From Mytilus edulis (lineage: Eukaryota): a stretch of 64,000 bases of DNA. A model generated the notes under the pieces. That model saw only the letters and a program-made list of their open reading frames with translations. It ran no database searches and was not told the origin of the DNA. Positions 1 through 20,022 of this stretch are shown here, one piece after another; within the stretch, counting starts at the first letter, position 1; each line of letters starts with the position of its first letter. Made by a program: the position numbers and the translations under genes. The DNA lies in assembly GCF_963676685.1 (NCBI RefSeq), contig NC_092355.1, forward strand, positions 23,312,001 through 23,376,000, given 5' to 3'.

Positions 1-19
1 ATCGTAGGAAATCTAATGG

Positions 20-81
20 TGTTTTCTGCTCGTTGGCCAGGTTGTCTGTTTGACACATATCCCATTTCCATTCTCAATTTT
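20..81 (+). mobile_element. 3' fragment of short interspersed family B (ends CCCCATTTCCATTCTCAATTTTA)
   Basis: Homologous to 9640-9930, 17995-18106 and 27670-27861. Confidence 0.7.
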
Positions 82-1329
82 AAGGTTTTTAAGACATTTA
101 CCCATATCATTGGAAATCCAATGGACAAGGTATACTTATAAGTAATGTTGTTGTACACATAGGCAGATATAACTGGGCAATGCTAGGAAGTGTTTCCATG
201 GAATTTAAAAAGTGGGTCTAGCTGGAATTTGGGAGAAAATAAAGAATCAGATCTACTCTAATACTGAACATGCTGAAAGCTTTACGTTCTTTGCACTATT
301 TATGATCATATACATACATGACATATTTATATGCTGTTTTCAGACTTCAAAAATTTTCACTGAAATTTTCTTCTTAGAAATTATAAGAACTCATTGGTAT
401 TATGCTTAAAACAAAGAAGTTTTTAGTTGAATGAGAACCAGTGAGGCACTGTGACAGATTTTAGGTTACACTTGCTGGACTGAGGCAGACATTTTGCCTT
501 TCAATATTGTAATCACCCACAACAAGCTGTTTCATGGATTCATAAAAGAAGCAAAGAACATTTCAATCCCAATTCCAGGTGTCAGAAAACATGTTTTTAT
601 TTTACTCAAGGATGCAACATATTTATTAAAATTACCCCCCCTTTTTTTCCCCCCTAAAAAATCCAAAAAACATAAGAAACGAAGCAAAACAAAAACAAGT
701 CTGCCTCATGTACAAAATATGCCAATTCTGCAAATTGAACTTTCATCTTTTGTGAATAAGTAATGTAACCTGACTACCAGTAGTTACAGGTGTTTTAACA
801 GAATAAACATGTTTTTAATGGTTTGGCGTGTTGTTCAGGGTTGCTCTCTTTAATAGACATAAACCCCACATCTTATTTTATTTATAATCATCCTCCATCT
901 AAAGTCTTTTTTCTCTGCAAGAAACTAAATAATAAAGAGCCTGACATTTTTACCCAACAGTTATTAAGCCACCTACAAAAAAAAATCAAGATTATTTATG
1001 ACTATTTTATTTATAATGAAATATTGTGTGATCTTAGTGACACATCTTTTGAAAAACAATATAATGGCGCCTAAAAAAGGAAAGAGAATATTAATGGTAC
1101 TAGATGTGTTTTTTTTATATGAAAAAAAGATGTAAGTAGAATTGCTGATGAGACAAATTCTCAACAAATATGTTAGTCTTTTTTTCCTTGTCTGTGACAC
1201 AATGATGATATAAAGAAGGATTGGAAAAACAATTGAAATCTGAGATCAATGAAAGTATTTCTTTATATTGTCAAAGACTTAAAAAAGAATCCAGTTTACC
1301 AGTTTAGTTCAATTTTTTTTTATAAGTCT

Positions 1330-1654
1330 AGCTGTAGATGAAGAATTATTTCGAGTGTGGGAAGTTTTGAGACTAGGTAACCCAGGCAGCCATTGAAGAG
1401 GGTAATGAACTCTGGTTAGTATAAATATGTGGAATCAACTATTTACATAACTATGAATTGTTTGAAATGCTAAAAATTTACTGACCCCAGGAGTTAAGAT
1501 TATTTGGCAAAACCTTTCAGAATTTTTGGTCTTGATGCTCTTCAACCCTTTTAACTTTTTTGTTTCAAGCGCCATGATGATGAGCCATTTGTAGACGAAA
1601 AGCTCGTCTGGTGTACAACATTTTTAGGACTGAAATCTTTGATGAGGTATTTCT
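1330..1654 (+). mobile_element. Degenerate retrozyme-like repeat monomer carrying a decayed type I hammerhead ribozyme motif
   Basis: 1569-1614 reads GCGCCA-TGATGATGAG-CCATTTGTAGAC-GAAA-AGCTCG-TC-TGGTGT. GCGCCA/TGGTGT can pair as stem I, and the TGATGA, GAAA and GUC elements are in hammerhead order. 1505-1650 is homologous to 6853-7005. The 5' boundary is approximate. Confidence 0.7.
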
Positions 1655-2973
1655 ATGTATTTTGGATTTCATTATTATTCATTCAGAAGGATTTTTTGTG
1701 TGGATTTTGTGGGTTACATAAATGAATCAGAAAAGTGTTGAGCATAATATATATATAATATATATATATGTTTTTACCAAGATATGTCGTAACCAGAAAA
1801 ACTATCAATAAATCAATCTTCGAAAATTTGTGTCCATGAAAATAAAGAAATCCACATTTGTTATAAGGGCACCAATTCCTCTCATTTGGCTTAAGTTTAG
1901 GGTAACATTGTTGGTCAATAATGATTCAATTATTACCTTCCATAAGATATAATATTGTTCAGGTAATAACAGAACTATTAACCAGCCCTTAATGTTCAAC
2001 CACAAAACAATAAAATATGTAATAGAGATTCGTTTATGACTTGTACTTTCTCCTTTGAAGTGTTGTGTGTATTTCCCTCTACTACACTCTCGTTAAGTGT
2101 GACTGCCTGAGACCTTGAAGGGGAGTGTTTACAAAACGAGGAAAATAAATACTTCAGTAACTCATTACCAGCTGTTCAGCGAAAAAACTAAAACATATGG
2201 GATTTAATACCTGGGATGGAAATTTAGATACATAAGATATTTGATTTTCTTCACAGTGAATTTATGGATTTAGGATATTGACTATTATCTGTAGGTATTC
2301 ATGATTTCTATTTTTAGCACCAGTTGGGGGAAATAATGTATGTTTCACATTTAATGCATGTTAAACTGAAAAGCACACCTAACTGACACCTGTCAAGTTA
2401 TCTCAGTTGTAAATTTCAATGCATGTTGCTATCATTTTGAAATGAAGTTTGGTCTGATATAGTGTAATTATACAACTAAAATGTTAATGGATTTTTATAC
2501 TATTATAGTATATTAAAAAAGAAAATTGTATTGCAAATTTATGACTGGTTATATTTGTGAAATTAATGATTTTTAGAACAGTTGTTTTTCTAACAAAAGA
2601 AAAAAAAATATAATAAAAATCTTTGTGAATCATACATAGTGAAGCAGTTGTGACGATTTTGTATTGTGATTTCAAAGTGCGAATAAAAACTTTTATGTGA
2701 CATCTGTTGTCGAAGAAGATAATCTAGATTTTAATGTAAATGTAGAGAAATGAATTTCACACGTTTGTCCTTGAATTAGACGAATGAAACGGAAGGATAT
2801 ATTTACTGCATAACATAATTTTTTTTAAGTGGATTAAAGTGACCTAAGTTAAATATTTGGTCATCACTTTTTCAAGTGGTGATATCCTGTATTGAAAGTT
2901 GATACAGTATAACTAACAGTCACTGTGGTCAAAGGTTTGTATAAAATAATTGGATACTTACTGAAATTTAGAT

Positions 2974-3031
2974 TTTACTGTTACAAATTTTGGTTTTACT
3001 GTTACAAATTTTGGTTTTACTGTCACAAATT
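2974..3031. repeat. 21-bp tandem repeat, about 3 copies (TTTTACTGTTACAAATTTTGG)
   Basis: Directly visible. Confidence 0.9.
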
Positions 3032-3061
3032 TGATTGTGGAATCTAAAAATGTTACATCAT

Positions 3062-3245
3062 GTATAAAATAAGGAGATCCCAAATATCAGACAGACATTA
3101 AAGGAAGCTGTTATCAGCAACTATTGTTTACCATAGGTCCTTCAACACTGAGCAAAACCCATACTATATAATCAGGTATTAAGGACTACAGCAAGAACAT
3201 TAGAAAAGGCGAAACAGTTTTAACCAGAAAACCAACTGCCTGATT
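3062..3245 (-). mobile_element. Short interspersed family A copy, degenerate and inverted
   Basis: CCTTCAACACTGAGCAAAACCCATAC is the reverse complement of the family A motif GTATGGG.TTTGCTCA.TGTTGAAGG. Confidence 0.6.
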
Positions 3246-3261
3246 TTTTGCTTTCTGGTAT

Positions 3262-3549
3262 AGGGTATGGATTTACTCACTGTTGAAAACTACAGGGGCG
3301 GATCCAGCCATTTTAAAAAGGGGGGGTTCCTAACCTAGGACAAAGGGGGGGTTCCAATTACATGTCCCCATTCAAATGCATTGATCGTCCAAAAAAAAGA
3401 GAGGGTTCCAATCCCCGGAACCCCCCCTCTGGATCCGCGCCTGAACTGTACTATTGTGACTGACCACTAGTTGTTTAACTTCTATGTCATTTTGCCTCTG
3501 GTGGAGAGTTGTCTCATTGACAACCATACCACATCTTCTTATTTTATAT
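3262..3549 (+). mobile_element. Short interspersed family A copy, interrupted by a MITE
   Basis: GGTATGG..CTCACTGTTGAA [MITE] CTGTAC...GGAGAGTTGTCTCATTGACAACCATACCACATCTTCTTATTTTATAT is colinear with 10304-10428. Confidence 0.8.
3293..3443 (+). mobile_element. MITE with TIR CAGGGGCGGATCC / GGATCCGCGCCTG and 5-bp TSD (hAT5-like)
   Basis: The TIRs are visible and the flanks are AACTA/AACTG. Internal ATTCAAATGCATTGATCGTCCAAAA is shared with the copies at 39.8, 48.7, 52.0 and 54.9 kb. Confidence 0.85.
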
Positions 3550-5009
3550 AGCCCTTGATTTTAGGCTAGACTTTTAGGAGCATAATGCATTGTCTTTTCA
3601 ATTAAAGGTAAAAGATTATTTTTACATATATCATGTTTCAGGCAATTTAAATTTTAAATAATAAGAGATATTTATGGTAAATATTTTTTTAGCAAACACA
3701 ATATTTATATTTTTAAGTTATATTTTATATAAAAACTTCCTTGTTATTCTGTATGCATGTATGGAGGTTTTTCTCTGGAAATTTATTACAGAATTTCAGA
3801 TCATTAAACACCACGGGGTTTATATATAGTTTTATGAATTTAGTTTCTTTATTAGAATTAGGATTTCTGCAAATGATGCAAATTGAATTCTGTATTGTGA
3901 TTGGATTAAAAGTCTGAACTAGATTCCTGGACTAATTTGATTTGATTCTTACTTCTTTGAGACCAAAGGGAAATACATTTATCTGACTTCTATGTTTCTG
4001 ACCATTAGTGATTTACCAAAGACCCCCAAAAATGACTTATAATACAACAGTCTGCAATAATTGGTAGTGAAATTGAATGTTTCCTTCGTTGCAGCATGAT
4101 GCACAAGTAAACAAATTTGACAGTTGATAAATTGGTAATGCTAAAACTTCAGTAACACAGAAATGAAATTAACTCTCTCTCATAACTAGTAGTAGCATAT
4201 GTTGCAAACAACATGACATTGCATTGTATTTTAGACATTACTTTAAATTACAGCGATGACTTGTAATCAATGAAAGATTCATATATATAATAATGAATTG
4301 TTCATAATTTGTTGCTTTTAAAAACACATTAACAACAGAATTTTATGTTTCAAAAACACATTGTCAACCACACAAAATTTTAATAAAACAAATTAGACAA
4401 CAAAATTTTTTATGGCCAAAAGACATTGACATCAGAAAGTCATGTTGCCCACACACATTTACAACCAAATAAAATTTTGTGTTAATAAAACACTTTTAAC
4501 AAAAGAGAAACAGACAGTCATGTTGCTAAAGACCATTGTAAACAGCTGGAATCGGTTGATGCTAAAATTTTCATTTCTTAACCATATTGACAAACATTAC
4601 TTTGTGTTAATGAAACAATCTGATTATATGGCACAAAATGATACTTTTTTTCTATCAAAACAGGGGAGGGGTGTATGAGTGACCACCTGAAACTTTAGAT
4701 TGGAAGCTGGGGAACCTTTTGAGTATAGAAATAATCTTTAATTTCTATAGATCAAGGGTCAGTAAGACTAACAAAAGTTTGATTCACCTTTTAGGCTTTA
4801 CTGGCTCTTTACTGGCTTTAGTGGGAGATGATATTAAAGTCACAGTATAAAGATTGATCAGTTTATATTCCAGCATTGTCACATTAATTACGCTCACTTG
4901 CAAATGATTTTTTTAACCACTACTCTTATAGTCGTAAATGATGTAGTTATGGAATTATTATGCTTATTTATGATAAATAAAACATTTATGCCTGCCCAAC
5001 TGCTATATA

Positions 5010-5256
5010 TGTGGAAGCAGTTTGTTTATGTACTAGAGTCTTTTCTTGGTTGCAAGTCGTGCAAATTGAAGTAATTTGTATGTGGACACAGTCACACGTT
5101 TCTTGGTTGGGCATCTTTCAAATCAAAGTAATTTGTATGTGGACTCGATTCTTGGTTGCGCATCTTTCCAATCTAGGCAATATGTATGTGGACTCTTTTT
5201 GTGGCTGCATAGCAAATCCAAGTAATTTTGTATGGGAACACAGTTTTCTTGGTTGC
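5010..5256. repeat. Degenerate ~50-bp tandem repeat, about 5 copies
   Basis: Recurrent GTAATTTGTATGTGGAC...TTTCTTGGTTG. Confidence 0.75.
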
Positions 5257-5500
5257 TATTGTGCAGTCTATGGATTACTGGCAATAGCTTTTAACTGACA
5301 ATTAACTTTGAAAATAGTCTCAAAAGTGTGACAATGTATGGATTATATTTTGAAAGGTATTGTAATATTTTTTTTAACACATATTACAATGTTAAAGATG
5401 ATAATTAGCTCCATAAAAGGAGAAATTGAACAATCTTACATGATGAAAACCTGTTCACAAACACAATTAAAAAGCTGTTGTGGGTTTATTTATGAGAATA

Positions 5501-5709
5501 CTGTTAAATTCAGAAATTATTGCGATGTTTTTATTTTTGCAAAAAAATGCTACAGGGTTATAATTGCAATAATTTAAACTTGAAATTTGATTTTTTTTAT
5601 AATGAATTAAGCAGGATTTTTCTCAATATCGTAAAAAATTAAAAACGCATTTTGGTCTAAAATGACAAAATCGCAATTATTAATAATCGCAATAATTACT
5701 GAATTTACA
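5501..5709 (+). mobile_element. TA-flanked MITE (Tc1/mariner-type), family CTGTAAATTCAGAAATTATTG
   Basis: TIRs are CTGTTAAATTCAGAAATTATTGCG / CGCAATAATTACTGAATTTACA. Homologous copies lie at 12492 and 23656. Confidence 0.8.
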
Positions 5710-6769
5710 TTTAAGTTATTGAAATCTTTTTTGAAAATCTAAACTAGTTTCCTTGCAATGTGAATGTCATGACACTTTAATAGCTGTGAAAATTACAGCT
5801 TATTTTTCTCATGTAAATATCTGTAAATATTATCTAATGTATATCAGCTAACCTTTAAAGGCCAAAGTTTAAATTACTTTTGGTTTAGGGTTTTAACTAC
5901 ATTATAAACTCTTTTATTGCATCAAAATGCCTACCCTTTAGGTTATTTTTGATGAATTTGCACATCTTGAAGTGAATGGGGACGAAAGTTAAGTCCATAT
6001 ACCTGACTTAGAAAAAAAGTTTTTGTTCCTGGCCAATTTTGTTCCTGGAGAAAAGCCCTTAGACTGTAAATTGTTTGGCCTACCGTTATGTGAATTGGAG
6101 CCACGTTTCATCATAAATTCATGCAAAATTAGGGATCATTCATCATTAGCATGTAAGATATATCTCCTTGCACAGTTTTGTGCACAACATATTTTTTTTC
6201 TAAGCAATAAAAGATTGTCTCTCACTTCAATGCATGTACAACAGAATAATTTAGCTAATTGTTGAGCAATGCTACATTTAAGATCAAAGAAGGGGGAAGG
6301 ATAGGGTTAGGGTTTTTTTACTCGATTTTCAGTCGGAATATATGCCAAATAACCAATTCCATTCAAAATAATGCATTAGTGTCGGCATACCATAATAAAT
6401 TCCCAAATTTCTGACAATTGCACTGGCCATTCCAAAGTTCCCTGAACATCAGAAAACAAGAGCATCTGTCCTGGCTCTCAAAAATCACCCATAAAGTCGC
6501 TGGTTTTCTTATCATGATACATACTACATAAGCTTTTACACAATTAACCCTGATAACACCATACTAGAGCCAAAAACCAAGATGTCATATATATGACATT
6601 GCCAAGATACATAAGTGATAACGTTAATCGCCCTTTCTGTTATAATTAGTGTCGCTTTTATTTTTATCATTGTTGTTCCCTCAGTGGCAAACAGTTTGAT
6701 GATTATTCTTAAACAAAAATCATTATCCCTTTCTTGACAATATTTGGATTGACGGAACATACTAATTAT

Positions 6770-6834
6770 TGACTTTTGGTCTCTTGTGGAGAGTTGTCTC
6801 ATTGGCAATCATCACATCTTTTTTTTTTTTTTTT
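6770..6834 (+). mobile_element. Family A 3' fragment
   Basis: GTGGAGAGTTGTCTCATTGGCAATCATCACATCTT followed by a T run. Confidence 0.75.
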
Positions 6835-6852
6835 GTCATTTATGTAAAAGGC

Positions 6853-7006
6853 GAAACCTTACGAAAGTTTTGGCCCTCATTGTTCTTTTACTCATTCTTT
6901 AGCCCTTTTAGTATCCTTGATTTGAGGGTCACTGATGAGTTATAAAGACAAAATACATGTCTAGGATACATAATCTTAAGCCTCCCTGGTTTCTATGATG
7001 AGTTTA
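6853..7006 (+). mobile_element. Second, more decayed copy of the hammerhead-containing repeat
   Basis: GGGTCA-CTGATGAG-TTATAAAGAC-AAAA-TACATG-TC-TAGGAT, with CTGATGA at 6932-6938. The flanks (AAACCTT..TTTTGG; T(A/T)TGATGAG) match the 1.6-kb copy. Confidence 0.65.
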
Positions 7007-8368
7007 ATGTTATACAAGTGGTAGAGTTCAAGGGGTAATGAACAAGTGAGCTGTGCCCAAAATGCACCTTATCCGTATTTGTCTGCCATAAATACAGGAC
7101 ATCACAAAAGTTCCTGTAAAATTTGAGTTCATAATAGAAAATATCTGACCCCACAATTCAAAAGTGATTGTTGTATGACTTTATAAGTTCAAGTGTAACT
7201 GATTCTTAGGGTCAAGCGGGACAGATTCTGAGGTCAAGCCAGACAAATTTCCACTTTTTTAACAGATTTTAACTTTCCTAACTTATTCTACAATTTTTAG
7301 CCGTTCTAGAAAATTGAAAGCAGACATTTAATACAATTTTATATCTTTTGATGTCTAGCCTCTTCTAAGATAAATATAGCGAGCAACTGTAACAGTTGGT
7401 TACAAAAAATTGATTATAGAGAAAAAATTACTTTACATGCAGATGTACATATATTTTTAAAATCTTATTAGCGACCAACTATAAACGAACGACTACTTTA
7501 TGCATGATTTGTCTTTTGCAAAACCATATTTGAATCTTGTACATAAAAGACATATTGAAAACTGTTTATAATTTATGCATTAATCTTGCAGATAGAAATA
7601 TCTTGCTGTGCATACATGATATAGAAAGAGTAATTCTTAATCAAATTGAATTTCTAATATTTTAGTCATGTATTTGAGTTTTGTTAATTAGTATTCTTAA
7701 AACAAAAACACTGCCTGATATATTTAAAATAAAATGTCACTTGCTGAACAATCTTCAACTCTGCGTGTTTAAAATTAATAGGATAAAATATAACTTTATG
7801 AACTTGCAACACAAAATTGTATGCATGCATAAAATCACTGATATGATAGCAGGTTGTTGTTGTATTGAAATTATATCGGCAGAAAATGGCTTGCAAGTTA
7901 TAATTAATAATATAACACAGTGTCCGTGACTCAACTCCTCTGTTAAACTTTGACTGGACATCATGTTGTTGGGTTGCAATTTGAATGATTATTTATATAT
8001 TTGATTTTTTGAAAGTTATACACTTTTCATTTTATTGACTTTTATGATGCAAATTTAGTTAAAACAACACATTTGTGAGTTATGGCCAATATGCACTGAA
8101 TTTTGACACCAGAATTTTTTTTCAAAAAGTCTTTAGTTCATATATAAGTATCACAGCCCACATCTTTATTTATTCATAAATAGGGAAGTATAATCGGTTC
8201 ATGAGACATTTTGAAAGCCTTTCTTCAGGTGTTTCATTATATCAAGAGAAAATCTGTTGGGCTTGATTAATTGTTTGATATTTTTTAAAAGATATATAAC
8301 GAGGTAGAAGATAAAAGGGGGAGGGGGGAAATAACAAACAAGAAATCACAGAAAAACAAACAGCACTA

Positions 8369-8568
8369 CTATGGATTCATTTATTTTTCGTGGGTCCCAA
8401 TTTTCATGGATTAAGGAAACCTTGCACATTCGTGGACATTTAGTTTCATGGTTTTGCCAAATACTGCATAGTGCATTCAATCGAAATTGAACATTTAATA
8501 TTGTGCATGGTTCTTGTGGTTCGACAAAATCCACGGAAATTTGTATCCAACAAATAATGAATCCACTG
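8369..8568 (-). mobile_element. TA-flanked MITE, family CTGTGGATTCATT
   Basis: TIRs are CTATGGATTCATT / AATGAATCCACTG, with TA on both sides. It is a reverse-oriented homolog of 17649-17858. Confidence 0.85.
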
Positions 8569-9639
8569 TATAATAAAAAAGAAAAAGGTTGATTATGACT
8601 ACGCAGAAAACAAGAGATTTAGTAACACAATCCCAACACTAAAGTAGGGGGGAATAATCCAGATTTTAAGTGTCTCAGCAATTAACTGGTACAGAAACAT
8701 GATAAAGTTATGTAATAAACTGAATTAATTCTGGATATGCACATTTTTTATTTCTCATTATATAGCTATTTTCACAGCTACATTGTGCACACTCAGGAAC
8801 TATAAACATATTTATTGTAAGTGTGACATCTGGTAAGAAATGGTGACATATAAAAGTTGAAGTCTTAATTTTGAGTTTAAGAAGCAAAAAAACCGTGAGT
8901 GTTTCCATGAACCTTAATTTTTATGACTAAATTCATTTTCTTTTCTTTTTTATCAAGCCCATAGTCACTTGACCATTGGTACAATTAAAAGAGAAAAAAA
9001 AGGTTTTTTTTGCTATTGATCTATTTTGTGTATAAGTTAACTGAAACACAGGTATTACTTTTGTTGGTCTTAATTTATTCTATGATAAAGATGTTTTTAT
9101 TTTGTATTATATTATCAAGAGTTATATCAGTAATATGTAAATGTATTATAATATAAACAACATATACTATGGTATGTACAACAAATATAAAAACTGACGG
9201 TTCACTGAACTTAAAAAATCGGTATACGTTAAACTACCATAAAATAACATGACAAGTTTTGGAAGTCCTTGAAACTAGAAGTTAGTAATTTTTGATACCC
9301 GCAGGGATATTTTTACTAGAAAAGCATGCATGTTAATTTTTACCTCAGTAAGAAAAAGAGATGTACACCTAGGCCTTGAAACTACAACGTTTTCATAATT
9401 AGTTTTCCTATTACTTATGTTAACATGTAATGTATAAATCGTATTGACGTCAACATGTCATTGTCATGCTGTGGTGATTATGTGACTTTTGGACTTTTTG
9501 TAAATTTTTTATGAAGATGGTTTATGATGGATCATAAGGTCTTATTTAATTTGTTAAGTTTTGTGTTAAGAGAAAAACGCTAATTGTAAGGGTTAGTAGA
9601 ACAACTTAAAAGAATTGTGAACACAAACTAAATATTTTA

Positions 9640-9930
9640 AGTATGACGACCATTATCACTGAACTAGTGCACATTTTGTTTAGGGGCCTTTGGGTGTGGG
9701 ATTTTCTCGCTGTATTGAATAGATATAGGAAGATGTGGTTTGAGTGTCAATTAACTCCATCCAAGTAACAATTTATAAAAGTAAACCATTATAGGTCAAG
9801 GTACGGCCTTCAACATGAAGCCTTGGCTCACAACGAACAGCAAGACCCATAATGGACTCAGCTGAGTGTTTTCTGCTCTTTGATCAGGTTGTTGTCTCTT
9901 TGACATTTTCCCCATATCCATTCAATATTA
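9640..9930 (+). mobile_element. Family B copy with a nested family A insertion
   Basis: AGTATGAC..TCACTGAACTAGT.CACATTTT..AGGGGCC matches 27670. The copy is split at TATTGA|AAGACCC by the insertion at 9719-9841. Confidence 0.8.
9719..9841 (-). mobile_element. Family A copy (subtype ending CTTCCTATATCTAT), inverted and nested
   Basis: The reverse complement matches 62776-62886 (GTTGAAGGCCGTAC.TTGACCTATAATGGTTTACTTTT). Confidence 0.85.
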
Positions 9931-10303
9931 TATTGTAAACAAATTATATTTTGAAGACAAATACATCATATTTTTTTCTTAATAAAAGACATTTTTTGAA
10001 AAATTAATAACCTCTGCCCCAGTAATTATAACCGCATCCATTTTCCCAAACCACAATCGCTACATTTACCCTATTTGTGGTTATTTATTTCGTAGTTAAT
10101 ACACAATTTCTTTTGTTTTAGAGATTATTATTGTCCTAATCAAATATTTATATGGCTTCTCTTTGATCAGTTATTCATCTCTTTTTGTCATACTTTGTGA
10201 AATATTGAGGAAATCAGCTGGTATCAATTAATGATGTCTCCTGTCTTTACCTCTGTGGATTCCTGCAGGAGGCATCCAGTGGGAAACTTTACTTGATAAT
10301 TGA

Positions 10304-10428
10304 TGCGGTATGGGCTTTGCTCATTGTTGAAGGCTGTACAGTGAACTATAGTTGTTAATTTCTGTGTCATTTTGGGCTCTTGTGGAGAGTTGTCTCATTG
10401 GCAATCATACAACATCTTCTTTATTATA
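10304..10428 (+). mobile_element. 5'-truncated family A retroposon with a perfect 16-bp TSD
   Basis: TTTACTTGATAATTGA occurs at 10288-10303 and again at 10429-10444. Confidence 0.9.
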
Positions 10429-10813
10429 TTTACTTGATAATTGAAATCGTGGATCATCTGTCTGTACCTCTGTGGGTTACTACATGAGGTATCTAGTGGG
10501 GAACTGTACTAGATAATTGAAATTTTTGCTCATCACTTGTAAGAATTTGGTTTTTATCACAAAAATATCATGACTAAAATAGGTTGAAAGTTAAATTGAA
10601 ATAGTCAAGACTTAAACAAGTTATTTTTTGTAGGATTTTTTAAGTCACTGAATGGTTTCTAAAAGCATTTAGAATTTCCCTGTTTCCCTCTTTATAGTTG
10701 AGAAAGAGTTATCTCCCTGATAGATAGAATGTTAATTTTATGTTTATTTTCTTCAAGTGTTTGTCAAGCAGCAATCCCCTGTGATTAAAGAATCATGAGA
10801 AATGTACAACTCC

Positions 10814-10940
10814 AAAGGGAGATAATTCTTTCATTTTCAAGAAAGGGAGATAATTCTTAAAAGGGAAATAATTCTAACAATTACAAGAAAGGGAGATAAT
10901 TCTTACAATTTCAAGAAAGGGAGAAAATTCTTACAATTAC
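10814..10940. repeat. Short tandem repeat AAAGGGAGATAATTCTT..., about 5 copies
   Basis: Directly visible; the period is irregular, about 15-30 bp. Confidence 0.8.
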
Positions 10941-11673
10941 TAGAAATGTAGCAGAACATAAAACTTTGAAGGAGGTTTATTATAGAATATTTTAGATGTT
11001 TCAAAGACAGTTTAAGGGATAATTGTGATGATGGGAATTGAGTTCCGCAGCAGACCCATAGCCAGGAGGTCTCAGAAGGTTTGACTTGGAGCCATGACAT
11101 TTTGACTTTTAGAGTCAAACATTCAATCAGAATCTTGAATTTGATAGTCTGTAACAGTATTGATTAGGTTTTCGAATGGAGTGAAACTTTTGACCCCCTC
11201 ATTGATTATGAGTGTGGAAACCTCGTCATTAAAACAGCTCAAACATTTATGATTTTGGACGATTTCAAGCTTCAATTTAAATAAAAATTAAACAACCTTT
11301 AGACTATGTGTAATATAACATTGAACAACAAATATTTATCTATATAATTTTCAAGGACACATTTGTATTGTACATTATGGAGTTATTTTATCATTGACTC
11401 TTGTCTATGATTAGTCAAGCAGAAGATACTATACATGTATAGTATTTCATTGTGATTGTATTCTCTTAAAGTCATGTGACTTAAGTGACAAGTAAAATTG
11501 TATGATATGTTGTAATTTATGACTCCACCTTTCAATGTAAATATGAAAGTCTCTGTGTACCAAAACATATGCAAATATTTCCATATTGAATTTTTTTAAG
11601 GAATTCCATTATCCAGTTGTATTTAGTTTGCTAGGTAATTCTTTAAAAATTGACATTTTATTTACCAGCAATA

Positions 11674-11855
11674 GAGAGGTTGGGATAGGACCTTTACCTG
11701 GACTCCGGGATCAAGTGTTTTTAGGCTCCGGAATTCTTTTTTCGAATTTCAGGATGTCAGGATTTTAATAAATTTAAATGCAGGACCTAGGGATTTCGTG
11801 TTTTTAAGCCCGGGATTTTAGGGTTAGGACACCTCCTACTCCCCCCCCCCCCCTC
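11674..11855. mobile_element. MITE with GAG...CTC termini and 4-bp TSD (Sola2-like)
   Basis: AATA|GAGAGG...CCCCTC|AATA, with internal repeats of a (C)GGGATTT-like motif. Confidence 0.6.
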
Positions 11856-12491
11856 AATAGAAAAGGAATAACTGTTCATGGTTTGATTCCTGTACTGATC
11901 AATCAAATGTTTCCTATTGCTTGTAACAGATCAAATGTTACTGTCTTATTATAAAAAAAAATATTATATTAACGAGGGACATTATTACACATTTCTAGGA
12001 GGAATTACTAAGAAATGAAAGAACCCTTTCCTCTTAAAATCAAACTTTTAAAATTGTTTAACCAATCAAACGCTTCAATTTTCCTCAAGGTTGAGTATAT
12101 TTTTTAAGTTTGATACATATCAAGTACTGAATGTATCCCTCTTTAAAGAATGACTCAGAATATTGCTTGTAGAAGACTACATAGAGACAAATTGACTGTA
12201 TCCCTGTCTTATTATAAAAAATGATTATAATCATGAAGGCCAAGTACACATATTTCTAAGAAGAGAGTGATTTCCACTCTGATAGCAATTTCTCTATAAT
12301 ACATCCATCATCTCTGCTGTTGATGATTAAAATGTTGAATAACAGTATTTATTTTCTGCAAGTCCTTGATAGTTCTTCAAGAAAATCAATACCTGATGCT
12401 TATATTCTATGTGAACACTTGTTGGCTTCATGATGTTTTCTCTACAACATCAAAAACTTCATTTTGTAGAAGGCAGTGGGAGAAGTGATTA

Positions 12492-12640
12492 CTGTAGAAT
12501 CAGAAATTATTGTGATGTTTTTATTATTGCGAAAAAATGCGACAGGGTTATAATCTGAAATTTTTAATATGAATTTAACAGGATCACAAAATTTGAAATC
12601 ACATTTTAGTCTAAAATGATAAAATGGCAATAATAAATGT
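12492..12640 (+). mobile_element. Truncated CTGTAAATTCAGAAATTATTG-family MITE
   Basis: CTGTAGAATCAGAAATTATTGTGATG... is colinear with 5501. The right TIR is missing. Confidence 0.75.
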
Positions 12641-13022
12641 GATCTTTTGTTGGCTTCATAATGTTTTCTCTACAACATCAAAAAGTTCATTTTTGAGAAG
12701 GTAGTGATTATGTAGTAACGTTGTCGTGCTCTCCATGATCATATACATATGTTGTGCTGATCATATACATAGACCTGTGTTGTTGCAATTACGTATTGAA
12801 ACACGAGAAAATTGATTCCTACTAGCTCATTTACACAGAAAACTCAAATTACATGAAAAGAACAAAGAATAGGGGTTTGGCATATATGTAAGGATAACTG
12901 ATATAAGTTGATTTATGTTGAGTTGTGGTGTAGTTTACCAAGAATTTGTGTTATTTCCATAGTCTTAATTTCCTTATGTAATGTTTTAAGGAAACAAAAT
13001 GTAGACTTGAGACAATTAATTG

Positions 13023-18106: not shown

Positions 18107-18262
18107 TTTATCTAATTGTGGAAACCAAAATTATAACTCAAGCTCATGTGGATATTATATAGTAAACACAACATATATATACAGAAATAACAATGCTGTC
18201 CTCTTCCTTGAGTCGGGTCTAAAAAATTAGACTTATCATCACTGGGTTTGTACTTACATTAG

Positions 18263-18716
18263 CAACATGGCAGGTGGTACTGAGTGGAGCAGGATCTGCT
18301 TACCCTTCCAGAGCTCTGGAGATCATCAACATGGCAGGTGGTACTGAGTGCAGCAGGATCTGCTTACCCTTCCAGAGCTCTGGAGATCATCAACATGGCA
18401 GGTGGTACTGAGTGGAGCAGGATCTGCTTACCCTTCCAGAGCTCTGGAGATCATCAACATGGCAGGTGGTACTGAGTGGAGCAGGGTCTGCTTACCCTTC
18501 CAGAGCTCTGGAGATCATCAACATGGCAGGTGGTACTGAGTGGAGCAGGATCTGCTTACCCTACCAGAGCTCTGGAGATCATCAACATGGCAGGTGGTAC
18601 TGAGTGGAGCAGGATCTGCTTACCCTTCCAGTTCCAGAGCTCTGGAGATCATCAACATGGCAGGTGGTACTGAGTGAAGCAGGATCTGCTTACCCTTCCA
18701 GAGCTCTAGAGATCAT
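18263..18716. repeat. 64-bp tandem array, 7 near-identical copies, probably inside an interspersed element extending ~18230-18870
   Basis: The unit CAACATGGCAGGTGGTACTGAGTGGAGCAGGATCTGCTTACCCTTCCAGAGCTCTGGAGATCAT starts at 18263, 18327, 18391, 18455, 18519, 18583 (70 bp, with a TTCCAG duplication) and 18653. Confidence 0.97.
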
Positions 18717-20022
18717 CATAAGTTTTTTTAGGGGTTCATGCATATTTCTCTGTCTAGAACGGTTTTCGATGTCAGGTTTTGTTTACCATTGTTTGTTGGT
18801 TTTTTGTTTTTGCCATGGCATTGTCAGTTTGTTTTAGACTTATGCGTTAGATTTTCAATTTGGTATATTTTTTAAACAAATTTTGATTAGAATGAAGCGA
18901 AAATAGCATGCAATGAAAATCTTAGCCAACTCTTAAATATGGAAAATAAAACAATATCATTTTAAATAAAAGCAAATTGTGGAATTAATGCCCTTTAACT
19001 TTGGTATTATCCAATCAAAAGAAAAGTTCCAAACAGTGTTGCATTGAGATCTGTGTTTTACTGACTCATTATTTTATCATCAAAAGAAAATCATGGATAT
19101 ATGAAGAAAGATTGAAGGATGTTGAAATGAAATATAAAGATTGATGTTTTCTTAATTTGGGAAATCATCAGCTTGATGACAAATGAAAATCTCAGCATTA
19201 CCCAAAGTAAATTTGACAAGAAATTTCCTGAGAAGCAGAGAATTTGATGACAAAATTTCTACATAATAATGCTATAATTCTGACATAACATAAAACTGTC
19301 TTGTTTTCTCCAGAAATCGGATTCTTCTCTTCAGATTTCTACAAATCAATAATTATTTGATTGCACAATTTCTATGTTCCTTAGTAGCAGCTGAGAGACT
19401 AGTAATGTTTCATGGATTTACATGCAAACAAATTGTCGATAGTTAATTGACTCGCCAGTTGACTAGCGCAGGGATAGCTAGTGTAAAATATAGGATTGGT
19501 TTTCTTATTATAATTTGATGTTTTTCAATTTGTAAAATCTCTTGTATATCTTGTAATTATGTATAATTCTCTGTAGATGCTATTAAAGTCTCATTAAAAG
19601 AGTGATCCTGATATATTTTATATATATTTTATATCAGGTGACGAGAATTTAATTTCCAGAAGGAATATCAGTGGGTAGAAAATGATATACAGGGATCCAG
19701 TCTCAAAGATGTATTCAGAAATTGATGTCAATTAAATCTTTCTTTTATTCTATTGTTTTGGAAATATACAAATTTAGAAGTTGAAAAAATGCTGTATATA
19801 TCATTATGTTTCAAGGGTAACTTTTTTTTAATATTAGAAAAATAGAGGCACAAAAGGGGCAATCAAAAACGTAAAACAAAATCCCCTGTGAATGCCTGTT
19901 GTCCTTGTGTCTATGTGTCTGTGTGTCTGTCTGTCCAGTCTTGTAAGAGCTCTGGCTTGTACATTTTTAACCAGAATTTCTACATTCAAATGCATGTGTG
20001 TAATAATTGTTGCCTCTGCTTT

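What the first reader, a model, noticed from the sequence alone, without database searches (positions are those of the whole stretch)
1569..1614. Decayed type I hammerhead ribozyme within a ~320-bp retrozyme-like monomer
Seen: GCGCCA (1569-1574) can pair with TGGTGT (1609-1614) as stem I. It is followed by a TGATGATGAG core in which the C of CUGAUGA is lost and TGA is duplicated. Then come a short G....TTTGT-AGAC stem II, GAAA (1597-1600), a 6-nt quasi-palindromic stem III (AGCTCG) and a GUC cleavage triplet. Known: this is the layout of metazoan type I hammerheads with a tiny palindromic stem III, found in Penelope-like elements and non-LTR retrozymes. Such retrozymes have been reported from Mytilus and yield small circular RNAs. 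Inference: 1330-1654 is roughly one monomer, with GATGA..(T)ATTT-like motifs at both ends as expected from copying a circular template. This copy is probably catalytically dead.
Basis: partly seen in the sequence, partly recalled or inferred. Interest (0 to 1): 0.72.

Follow-up and report, generated by a model that had tools for sequence, protein, structure and literature searches.

The report
Dead retrozyme fragment from Naiad-linked family
This is a clipped, mutated and likely inactive leftover of a very common, already described mussel-type repeat that carries a self-cutting RNA, so the spot itself is ordinary, but the repeat family shares a predicted RNA hairpin and a fixed end point with Naiad jumping genes, which likely identifies the enzyme that copies it.

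Summary
The hammerhead layout at 1569-1614 is real. It lies in a decayed copy of a 364-bp hammerhead repeat (6,221 exact intact cores in this genome) that fits the published mussel non-LTR retrozyme. The copy is not a ~320-bp monomer: it spans about 1406-1652, is 5'-truncated, and 1330-1412 is unrelated DNA. Core, stem II and helix III are broken, so it is very likely dead; no RNA reads cover it. The family is the interesting part. 72 of 87 arrays end about 47 nt past the cleavage site, just before a ~60-nt 'head' hairpin with compensatory changes. The same hairpin opens two abundant Naiad (Penelope-like) families, whose copies also end just before it despite unrelated tails. One Naiad family also carries a core-dead homologue of the hammerhead region in its 3' UTR, so the whole retrozyme unit aligns to two Naiad pieces. 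Inference: Naiad RT copies circular or uncut tandem retrozyme RNA, starting just upstream of the head. This scan noted the Naiad-head link before on other DNA (three notes, read after I had reached it); the dead hammerhead in a Naiad was not in those notes. Cleavage, circles and RT binding are untested.

The parts
1406..1652 (+). 5'-truncated, decayed retrozyme copy (about unit positions +146 to +364, then +1 to +47, counted from the cleavage site); firm alignment 1433-1648, 5' edge uncertain between 1406 and 1433; two internal deletions of about 11 and 17 nt
   Evidence: nhmmer E 3e-30; pairwise alignment; BLAST to 29 other loci
1569..1574 (+). hammerhead stem I, 5' strand; 6 of 6 pairs with 1609-1614
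1575..1583 (+). broken CUGAUGA box: 2 nt longer than in intact copies, C3 lost; no register gives CUGANGA or the U3-A8 variant
1584..1596 (+). stem II and loop; 2 of 4 pairs left
1597..1608 (+). GAAA box (intact), helix III (1 of 2 pairs; 4 of 8 as dimer) and GUC triplet; nominal cleavage after 1608
1609..1652 (+). stem I 3' strand (1609-1614) and tail up to the family's fixed 3' end at about 1652; the head hairpin that follows in tandem arrays is absent here
6845..7006 (+). second, shorter and more decayed copy of the same family, ending at the same fixed 3' end; CUGAUGA kept, GAAA box and stems II-III lost
   Evidence: nhmmer E 6e-15

Best explanation
The stretch 1406-1652 is a 5'-truncated, mutated copy of an abundant 364-bp hammerhead repeat (a non-LTR retrozyme) with a broken ribozyme core that is very likely inactive, and it was likely inserted by the reverse transcriptase of a Naiad-clade Penelope-like element, which is predicted to bind a hairpin shared by both elements and to start copying just upstream of it. 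Shown: family membership, truncation, broken core, the fixed 3' end of retrozyme arrays about 47 nt past the cleavage site, the shared head hairpin, and the same end position in two Naiad families with unrelated tails. Inferred: intact arrays are transcribed, self-cleave and are ligated to circles (published for the mussel family); the Naiad protein nicks AT-rich DNA and primes on the U-rich stretch 5-8 nt before the head, at an internal site of a circular or uncut tandem RNA; it copies backwards through the hammerhead and usually falls off early, as here (median array 220 bp), or goes round more than once (21 of 87 arrays exceed one unit). Confidence by step: dead truncated retrozyme 0.95; Naiad as helper 0.8; head sets the start site 0.6.
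For: Family: 6,221, 4,977 and 422 exact matches to three core patterns, reversed controls 0; periods 364, about 355 and 350 bp. Fixed end: 72 of 87 subfamily-A arrays end at +43 to +56, agreement with the unit falls to background after +48, 5' ends are scattered; 28 of 35 subfamily-B arrays end at +36 to +50; RNA depth over one unit drops 3- to 4-fold at the same point in 2 of 2 raw RNA-seq runs. Partner: 1,007- and 1,000-aa open frames; the first has N-terminal GIY-YIG and C-terminal RT and the CxC and DKA marks of Naiads (PMC8557442 section 6). Head: unit +38 to +113 aligns to the Naiad-1 5' end at 75% (score 66, shuffles at most 26); 18 of 20 Naiad-2 loci carry it before the frame (of the other two, one is 5'-truncated and one has no hit); 7 of 23 pairs change on both sides, 110 of 111 cells pair, 0 of 500 shuffles; its central 11-mer stands near the start of 11 published Naiad consensus records. 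Naiad ends: 23 of 25 Naiad-1 loci and 20 of 20 Naiad-2 loci end just before the head. 19 of 19 Naiad-1 loci hold a 230-290-nt homologue of the retrozyme body (E 1e-18 to 1e-35; score 235, shuffles at most 50). Inverted 5' partners, a Penelope-like mark: 4 of 87 arrays at the 5' side (2 retrozyme, 2 Naiad), 0 of 87 at the 3' side, plus locus L229. A purified Penelope-like protein initiates internally, needs RNA 3' of the start site, cuts at ATT and does not need hammerhead cleavage (PMC11167929, parts 1-2 read).
Against: No biochemical test. RNA data do not show cleavage or circles: no pile-up of ends at the cleavage site in 4 runs, reads on both strands alike, and the 17 and 42 reads that join unit end to unit start fit tandem DNA as well as circles. 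No target-site duplication signal (mean longest shared word 5.0 against 4.9 in shuffled pairs, 55 arrays). The inverted-partner counts are small, and 6 of 87 arrays also have same-strand Naiad DNA at the 3' side, so Naiad pieces are common neighbours. The covariation count rests on 5 sequences and a structure folded from them. Tail-head junctions would also arise if both were simply RNA ends. Only two Naiad families were examined; other Penelope-like clades in this genome were not searched. Arrays sampled come mostly from the first part of one contig. Identity with the published mussel sequences could not be checked (supplement unreadable).
Confidence: 0.75

Rival explanations
1. Same partner, different rule: the head is the promoter or 5' end of a linear, uncut transcript, the 3' end of insertions is set by the U-rich tail itself, and tandem arrays come from end-to-end template jumps rather than from circles.
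For: All four tails end in a short T-rich run. Penelope-like elements have internal promoters near the 5' end (PMC8557442 passages). No ends pile up at the cleavage site. Hammerhead mutants do not affect insertion in vitro. L236 has at least 14 tandem 83-bp copies of the head alone.
Against: The tails of Naiad-1, Naiad-2 and the retrozymes are otherwise unrelated while the distance to the head is constant. The head's stems covary, which points to a folded strand rather than a double-stranded promoter. Mussel retrozyme RNA is mostly circular (PMC7229834), and a circle has no end at +47.
Confidence: 0.25
2. The head is only a relic of the retrozyme's origin from a Naiad terminus; another Penelope-like clade or a LINE now moves it.
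For: Canonical hammerheads occur in the other Penelope-like clades, not in Naiads (PMC8557442 passages); Xenopus retrozymes match pLTRs of annotated PLEs (10.64898/2026.07.22.740005). I did not search those clades here.
Against: Three retrozyme subfamilies that differ by 20-40% in the body keep the head at 85-89% with paired stems, and the two whose ends were counted end at the Naiad position; many Naiad frames are intact and near-identical.
Confidence: 0.12
3. The window stretch is a remnant of the Naiad-1 3' UTR rather than of a retrozyme.
For: It covers nearly the same part of the unit as the Naiad-1 homologue.
Against: It scores 204 against subfamily A, 157 against B, 98 and 81 against two Naiad-1 copies; it keeps the GAAA box that the Naiad homologue lacks, ends at the retrozyme end and has no other Naiad DNA beside it.
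Confidence: 0.03
4. One reading: 1330-1654 is one whole monomer with a short terminal repeat left by copying a circle.
For: A look-alike of the 3' motif at 1337.
Against: 1330-1412 has no significant similarity to the unit; the head is missing; the unit is 364 bp.
Confidence: 0.02
5. The repeat spreads as DNA (Helitron-like rolling circle or satellite-type recombination) and the hammerhead is a passenger.
For: Tandem arrays, one fixed end, no target-site duplication.
Against: The fixed end is shared with RT-encoding elements; the hammerhead is kept with compensatory changes in subfamily D (12 of 12 pairs valid).
Confidence: 0.04

Closest known systems
Mytilus galloprovincialis non-LTR retrozyme (Cervera and de la Pena 2020, PMC7229834; parts 1-4 of 6 read, supplement not readable)
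   Same: Type I hammerhead in 350-390-bp low-GC tandem units, thousands of copies, two similar ribozyme families, short palindromic helix III; published clone size 353 against about 355 and 364 here.
   Different: The window copy is a truncated, core-broken fragment. The parts read report neither a fixed 3' end nor a partner; the 2020 review (PMC7761336, passages) says the repeats show no motif that names the helper. Sequence identity to the published clones was not checked.
Naiad clade of Penelope-like elements (Craig et al. 2021, PMC8557442; section 6, passages and supplement part 22 plus search hits read)
   Same: The partner has the permuted EN-RT order, CxC and DKA marks, tandem pLTRs, 5' truncation and no canonical hammerhead.
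   Different: The paper's main text has no hit for 'stem-loop' or 'hairpin' and its passages on hammerheads name no retrozyme link; here a Naiad family carries a core-dead hammerhead homologue and all families examined share a structured 5' head.
Retrozymes as non-autonomous PLE derivatives (Li, Clavereau, Pollet, bioRxiv 10.64898/2026.07.22.740005; parts 1-4 of 5 read, supplements closed)
   Same: Retrozyme units are homologous to PLE termini.
   Different: Shown for Xenopus only; no mollusc sampled, Naiad found only in a coral and not tied to a retrozyme, no analysis of insertion ends; it proposes local tandem amplification.
PAc Poseidon element, internal RT initiation (Frangieh et al. 2024, PMC11167929; parts 1-2 of 4 read)
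   Same: Internal start site, RNA needed 3' of the start, ATT target, hammerhead cleavage dispensable.
   Different: Other clade; start lies in an AC-rich stem-loop inside the frame, here it lies just before a 5' UTR hairpin and is inferred from insertion ends only.

Membership tests
Type I hammerhead ribozyme (Rfam RF00163), window copy | Intact CUGANGA and GAAA boxes and UH triplet | tested here: not met
   GAAA and GUC present, CUGANGA absent in any register; no Rfam hit
Type I hammerhead ribozyme (Rfam RF00163), window copy | Three paired helices | tested here: not met
   9 of 12 pairs; stem II 2 of 4, helix III 1 of 2
Type I hammerhead ribozyme (Rfam RF00163), intact relatives | Core and helices intact | tested here: met
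   12 of 12 pairs in subfamilies A and D; Hammerhead_1 hits in 3 of 8 loci given, hammerhead type III model hits in 2 more, all under the gathering score
Metazoan non-LTR retrozyme | Type I hammerhead in tandem units of 150-450 bp | tested here: met
   Family units 364, about 355 and 350 bp; the window copy is about two thirds of one unit
Metazoan non-LTR retrozyme | Low GC, non-coding | tested here: met
   Unit GC 37%; no open frame of 120 aa or more in window 1-13,000
Metazoan non-LTR retrozyme | No LTR, PBS or PPT | not tested
   No search for PBS or PPT was run
Metazoan non-LTR retrozyme | Expressed as linear and circular monomers | tested here: inconclusive
   Family reads present, but unit-to-unit joints fit tandem DNA too; no reads on the window copy
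Metazoan non-LTR retrozyme | Self-cleavage | not testable with these tools
   Published for a mussel clone; no pile-up of read ends at the site here
Metazoan non-LTR retrozyme | Target-site duplications over 4 bp when present | tested here: inconclusive
   No excess over shuffled pairs in 55 arrays; two insertions into known repeats show none (L091, L112); the paper says 'when present'
Naiad PLE (the partner element) | N-terminal GIY-YIG endonuclease before a C-terminal RT | tested here: met
   Pfam GIY-YIG at 138-226 (E 1e-4, 22.5 bits against cut-off 22.6) and weak RVT_1 at 753-856 of 1,007 aa; Naiad-2 was assigned by 68% identity in this region, not scanned
Naiad PLE (the partner element) | CxC motif and DKA in place of DKG | tested here: met
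   Read by eye in the printed frame against the paper's description; no tree was built
Naiad PLE (the partner element) | No canonical hammerhead; tandem pLTR structure | tested here: met
   0 of 40 motif matches (overlapping loci, so fewer copies) keep the core; head-to-tail units in L177 and L225-L228

The most novel reading that the evidence does not exclude
Naiad retrotransposons from bivalves to hemichordates begin with a conserved, unlisted RNA hairpin that anchors their telomerase-like RT and fixes the start of reverse transcription a few bases upstream on a circular or tandem template; mussel retrozymes are minimal parasites built from this anchor plus a hammerhead, and a Naiad family has kept the hammerhead fold in its 3' UTR with the core switched off, because a live one would cut the frame away from the start site.
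Probability: 0.45. Interest if true: 0.75.

Novelty: new variant of a known kind. Interest (0 to 1): 0.5.

Why it matters
The locus alone is ordinary: one dead fragment among thousands. The family analysis bears on an open question stated in print, namely which enzyme copies animal ribozyme circles into the genome and what it recognises. It names a candidate (Naiad RT), a candidate signal (a 60-nt covarying hairpin) and an exact predicted start site, so the question becomes testable with the in vitro assay already published for another Penelope-like protein. It also suggests that Naiads, described as hammerhead-free, are tied to hammerheads both through a parasite and through a dead copy in one family.

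Tried and rejected
Rfam on the window copy: no hammerhead hit. Idea that 1330-1375 is a coding exon: no RNA support (depth 0 in 3 of 4 runs, 0.27 in one); dropped. Alternative registers for a live core, including the U3-A8 variant: none. Target-site duplications: no signal. A pseudoknot in the head: suggested by the mussel sequences, rejected because the partner strand is not kept in Naiad-2 or in the oyster-labelled consensus records while the other strand is. The head as a known RNA family: no Rfam match. A Naiad with an intact hammerhead: three candidate loci turned out to be retrozyme copies; not found, not excluded. Direction of exchange between Naiad-1 and the retrozyme: tree unresolved (supports 34-59); heads are closer to Naiad-2 (79-85%) than to Naiad-1 (68-71%) and the Naiad-1 segment stops at the retrozyme's fixed end, which favours capture of a retrozyme by Naiad-1 over simple deletion from it, but does not settle it. 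Search of earlier notes by sequence: nothing. Literature: 7 searches showed no paper linking a mussel retrozyme to Naiads or describing the head; subscription journals, Repbase and closed supplements (PMC7229834, the 2026 preprint) could hold it.

Full report
1. Observation. Stem I (1569-1574 with 1609-1614) pairs fully and forms in the predicted fold. Rfam finds no hammerhead here. A search of the own genome (1.37 Gb) with 1480-1660 gave 790 candidates, 40 scored; the 39 other than the window itself are 70-84% identical. These relatives carry an intact type I hammerhead: Rfam scores the best at 32.5 bits, just under the gathering score, and one 24-letter core pattern occurs 6,221 times, its reversed control 0 times. 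Two further patterns give 4,977 and 422 matches. Tandem periods are 364 bp (subfamily A), about 355 bp (B) and 350 bp (D, locus L222). D has a different hammerhead with 12 of 12 valid pairs; on a six-row alignment 4 of 12 pairs change on both sides, a weak result (18 of 500 shuffles; the window row was out of register). Size, copy number, GC content and two similar ribozyme families fit the Mytilus retrozyme of PMC7229834. That the organism is a mussel is an inference from this fit; no tool named it.

2. The window copy. A profile from 10 tandem units matches 1433-1648 at E 3e-30 and a second copy at 6845-7006. Pairwise alignment extends it to about 1406-1652. Identity to subfamily A depends on the method: 83-85% of ungapped columns in local alignments, 68-71% in a multiple alignment. 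The stretch 1330-1412 is not homologous: 604 of 3,406 background stretches score as high, and a genome search with 1290-1500 finds other copies only from 1432 on. So this is about two thirds of a unit, not a monomer with repeated ends. The CUGAUGA box is 2 nt too long and lacks C3, stem II keeps 2 of 4 pairs, helix III 1 of 2 (4 of 8 as a dimer). Single changes at C3 or G8 abolish cleavage (PMC11167929), so the copy is very likely dead. No reads at 95% likeness cover 1501-1800 in 4 of 4 RNA runs; these runs are from other animals and only 19-25% of the two raw runs was read.

3. One fixed end. I mapped both ends of arrays around intact cores in 90 loci chosen by the core pattern alone (first part of one contig; overlapping arrays merged; one core, in L071, could not be anchored). 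72 of 87 end at +43 to +56 from the cleavage site, and agreement with the unit falls to background after +48; 5' ends are spread over the unit; median length is 220 bp and 21 of 87 exceed one unit. In subfamily B, 28 of 35 end at +36 to +50. Both window copies end there too. RNA reads laid on one unit drop 3- to 4-fold at this point, with mixed flanks beyond. A fixed 3' end with ragged 5' ends is what target-primed reverse transcription leaves (established knowledge of non-LTR elements). As the end lies past the cleavage site, the template must have been continuous across that site: a ligated circle or an uncut transcript (inference). No target-site duplication signal was found.

4. The partner. 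An RT fragment beside one array led to a very abundant element (51,089 candidates, 148 scored) with an intact 1,007-aa frame: GIY-YIG first, RT last, CxC and DKA marks, that is a Naiad as defined in PMC8557442. All 19 loci examined match the retrozyme profile in their 3' UTR. The whole B unit is covered by two Naiad-1 pieces: +38 to +113 by the 5' end before the start codon (75%, score 66 against at most 26 in 300 shuffles) and the other 290 nt by a 3' UTR segment (75% local, 66-69% in the multiple alignment; score 235 against at most 50). That segment holds a hammerhead homologue with stems I and II paired but both boxes changed in all 40 matches (overlapping loci). A second Naiad family (1,000 aa, 3,370-bp tandem unit) has the head but not this segment. 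The window copy is nearer to retrozyme A than to the Naiad segment (scores 204 against 98).

5. The head. It folds alike in A, B, D and both Naiads; 7 of 23 pairs change on both sides and 110 of 111 cells pair (five sequences, structure folded from them). Its central 11-mer occurs 11 times in the supplement of PMC8557442, each time near the start of a Naiad consensus (records labelled CGi, Sglo, Tgra, Pmar, Mcor, Mgal, Bpla, 1_Skow, 1_Pfla, 2_Pfla, Cmel; the total number of Naiad records was not counted, the table has over 50 rows; the taxa behind labels other than Mcor and Mgal are recalled). Rfam has no match. Naiad-1 copies end just before the head in 23 of 25 loci (one ran 7 nt further, one did not align) and Naiad-2 copies in 20 of 20, with tails unrelated to each other or to the retrozyme's apart from a short T-rich end. 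Four of 87 arrays have an inverted piece abutting the 5' end, two of them Naiad DNA, none at the 3' end; in L229 a 5'-truncated Naiad-2 is joined head to head to an inverted retrozyme array. These counts are small.

6. Mechanism. Shown: sections 1-5. Taken from papers: self-cleavage and circles in mussel (PMC7229834); internal initiation, need for RNA 3' of the start, ATT targets and dispensable hammerhead in a purified Penelope-like protein (PMC11167929). Inferred: Naiad RT binds the head, primes 5-8 nt upstream, copies back through the hammerhead and usually stops early. The main rival keeps the partner but lets the tail, as a true RNA end, set the position. My RNA data cannot decide: family reads are present (1,584 and 6,641), equal on both strands, 17 and 42 join unit end to start, and no ends pile up at the cleavage site. 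Whether Naiad-1 captured a retrozyme body or gave rise to it is unresolved.

7. Novelty. The locus is an ordinary dead member of a described family. That retrozymes derive from Penelope-like termini is proposed in a 2026 preprint for Xenopus. In 7 literature searches I saw no report of a Naiad partner, the head hairpin or the fixed end; closed supplements and databases could hold one. Three earlier notes of this scan, on other DNA, state the Naiad-head link; I read them after and do not count them as support. Their visible text does not mention the dead hammerhead homologue in Naiad-1. Verdict: observation partly confirmed, interpretation partly supported, interest 0.5, carried by the family and not by this copy.

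Noticed in passing
window 6845-7006 (+): Second decayed copy of the same retrozyme family with the same 3' end, directly after another common short repeat (6774-6834).
   Followed up: partly
window 18194-18870 (+): The 64-bp tandem array and the DNA after it match the 3' UTR of Naiad-2: a minisatellite born inside a Naiad remnant.
   Followed up: partly
L177:5481-5764 and 5243-5451: Naiad-1 3' UTR holds the retrozyme-like segment one and a half times in tandem; the first copy stops at stem I of the dead hammerhead.
   Followed up: partly
L236:1-1230: At least 14 tandem 83-bp copies of the head hairpin in front of an intact Naiad-2 frame; suggests repeated re-initiation at the head or a tiny circular template.
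   Followed up: partly
L229:1107-1593: Inverted retrozyme array fused to the truncated 5' end of a Naiad-2 copy, both 3' ends pointing outwards: possibly one integration event using two RNAs.
   Followed up: partly
L222:554-2960: Third retrozyme subfamily (350 bp) with a hammerhead differing by compensatory changes, the same head, and an inverted 5' piece.
   Followed up: partly
L091 and L112: Retrozyme insertions into known repeats, so the empty site can be read: no duplication in either, about 4 nt lost in L112.
   Followed up: partly
PMC8557442 supplement part 22, record Naiad_Mphi: By eye its 3' UTR has a stretch resembling the Naiad-1 dead-hammerhead segment, which would make that segment old; not aligned.
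   Followed up: no
window 3293-3443, 3461-3552, 5505-5680: Short dispersed repeats with many RNA reads from other loci; not classified.
   Followed up: no
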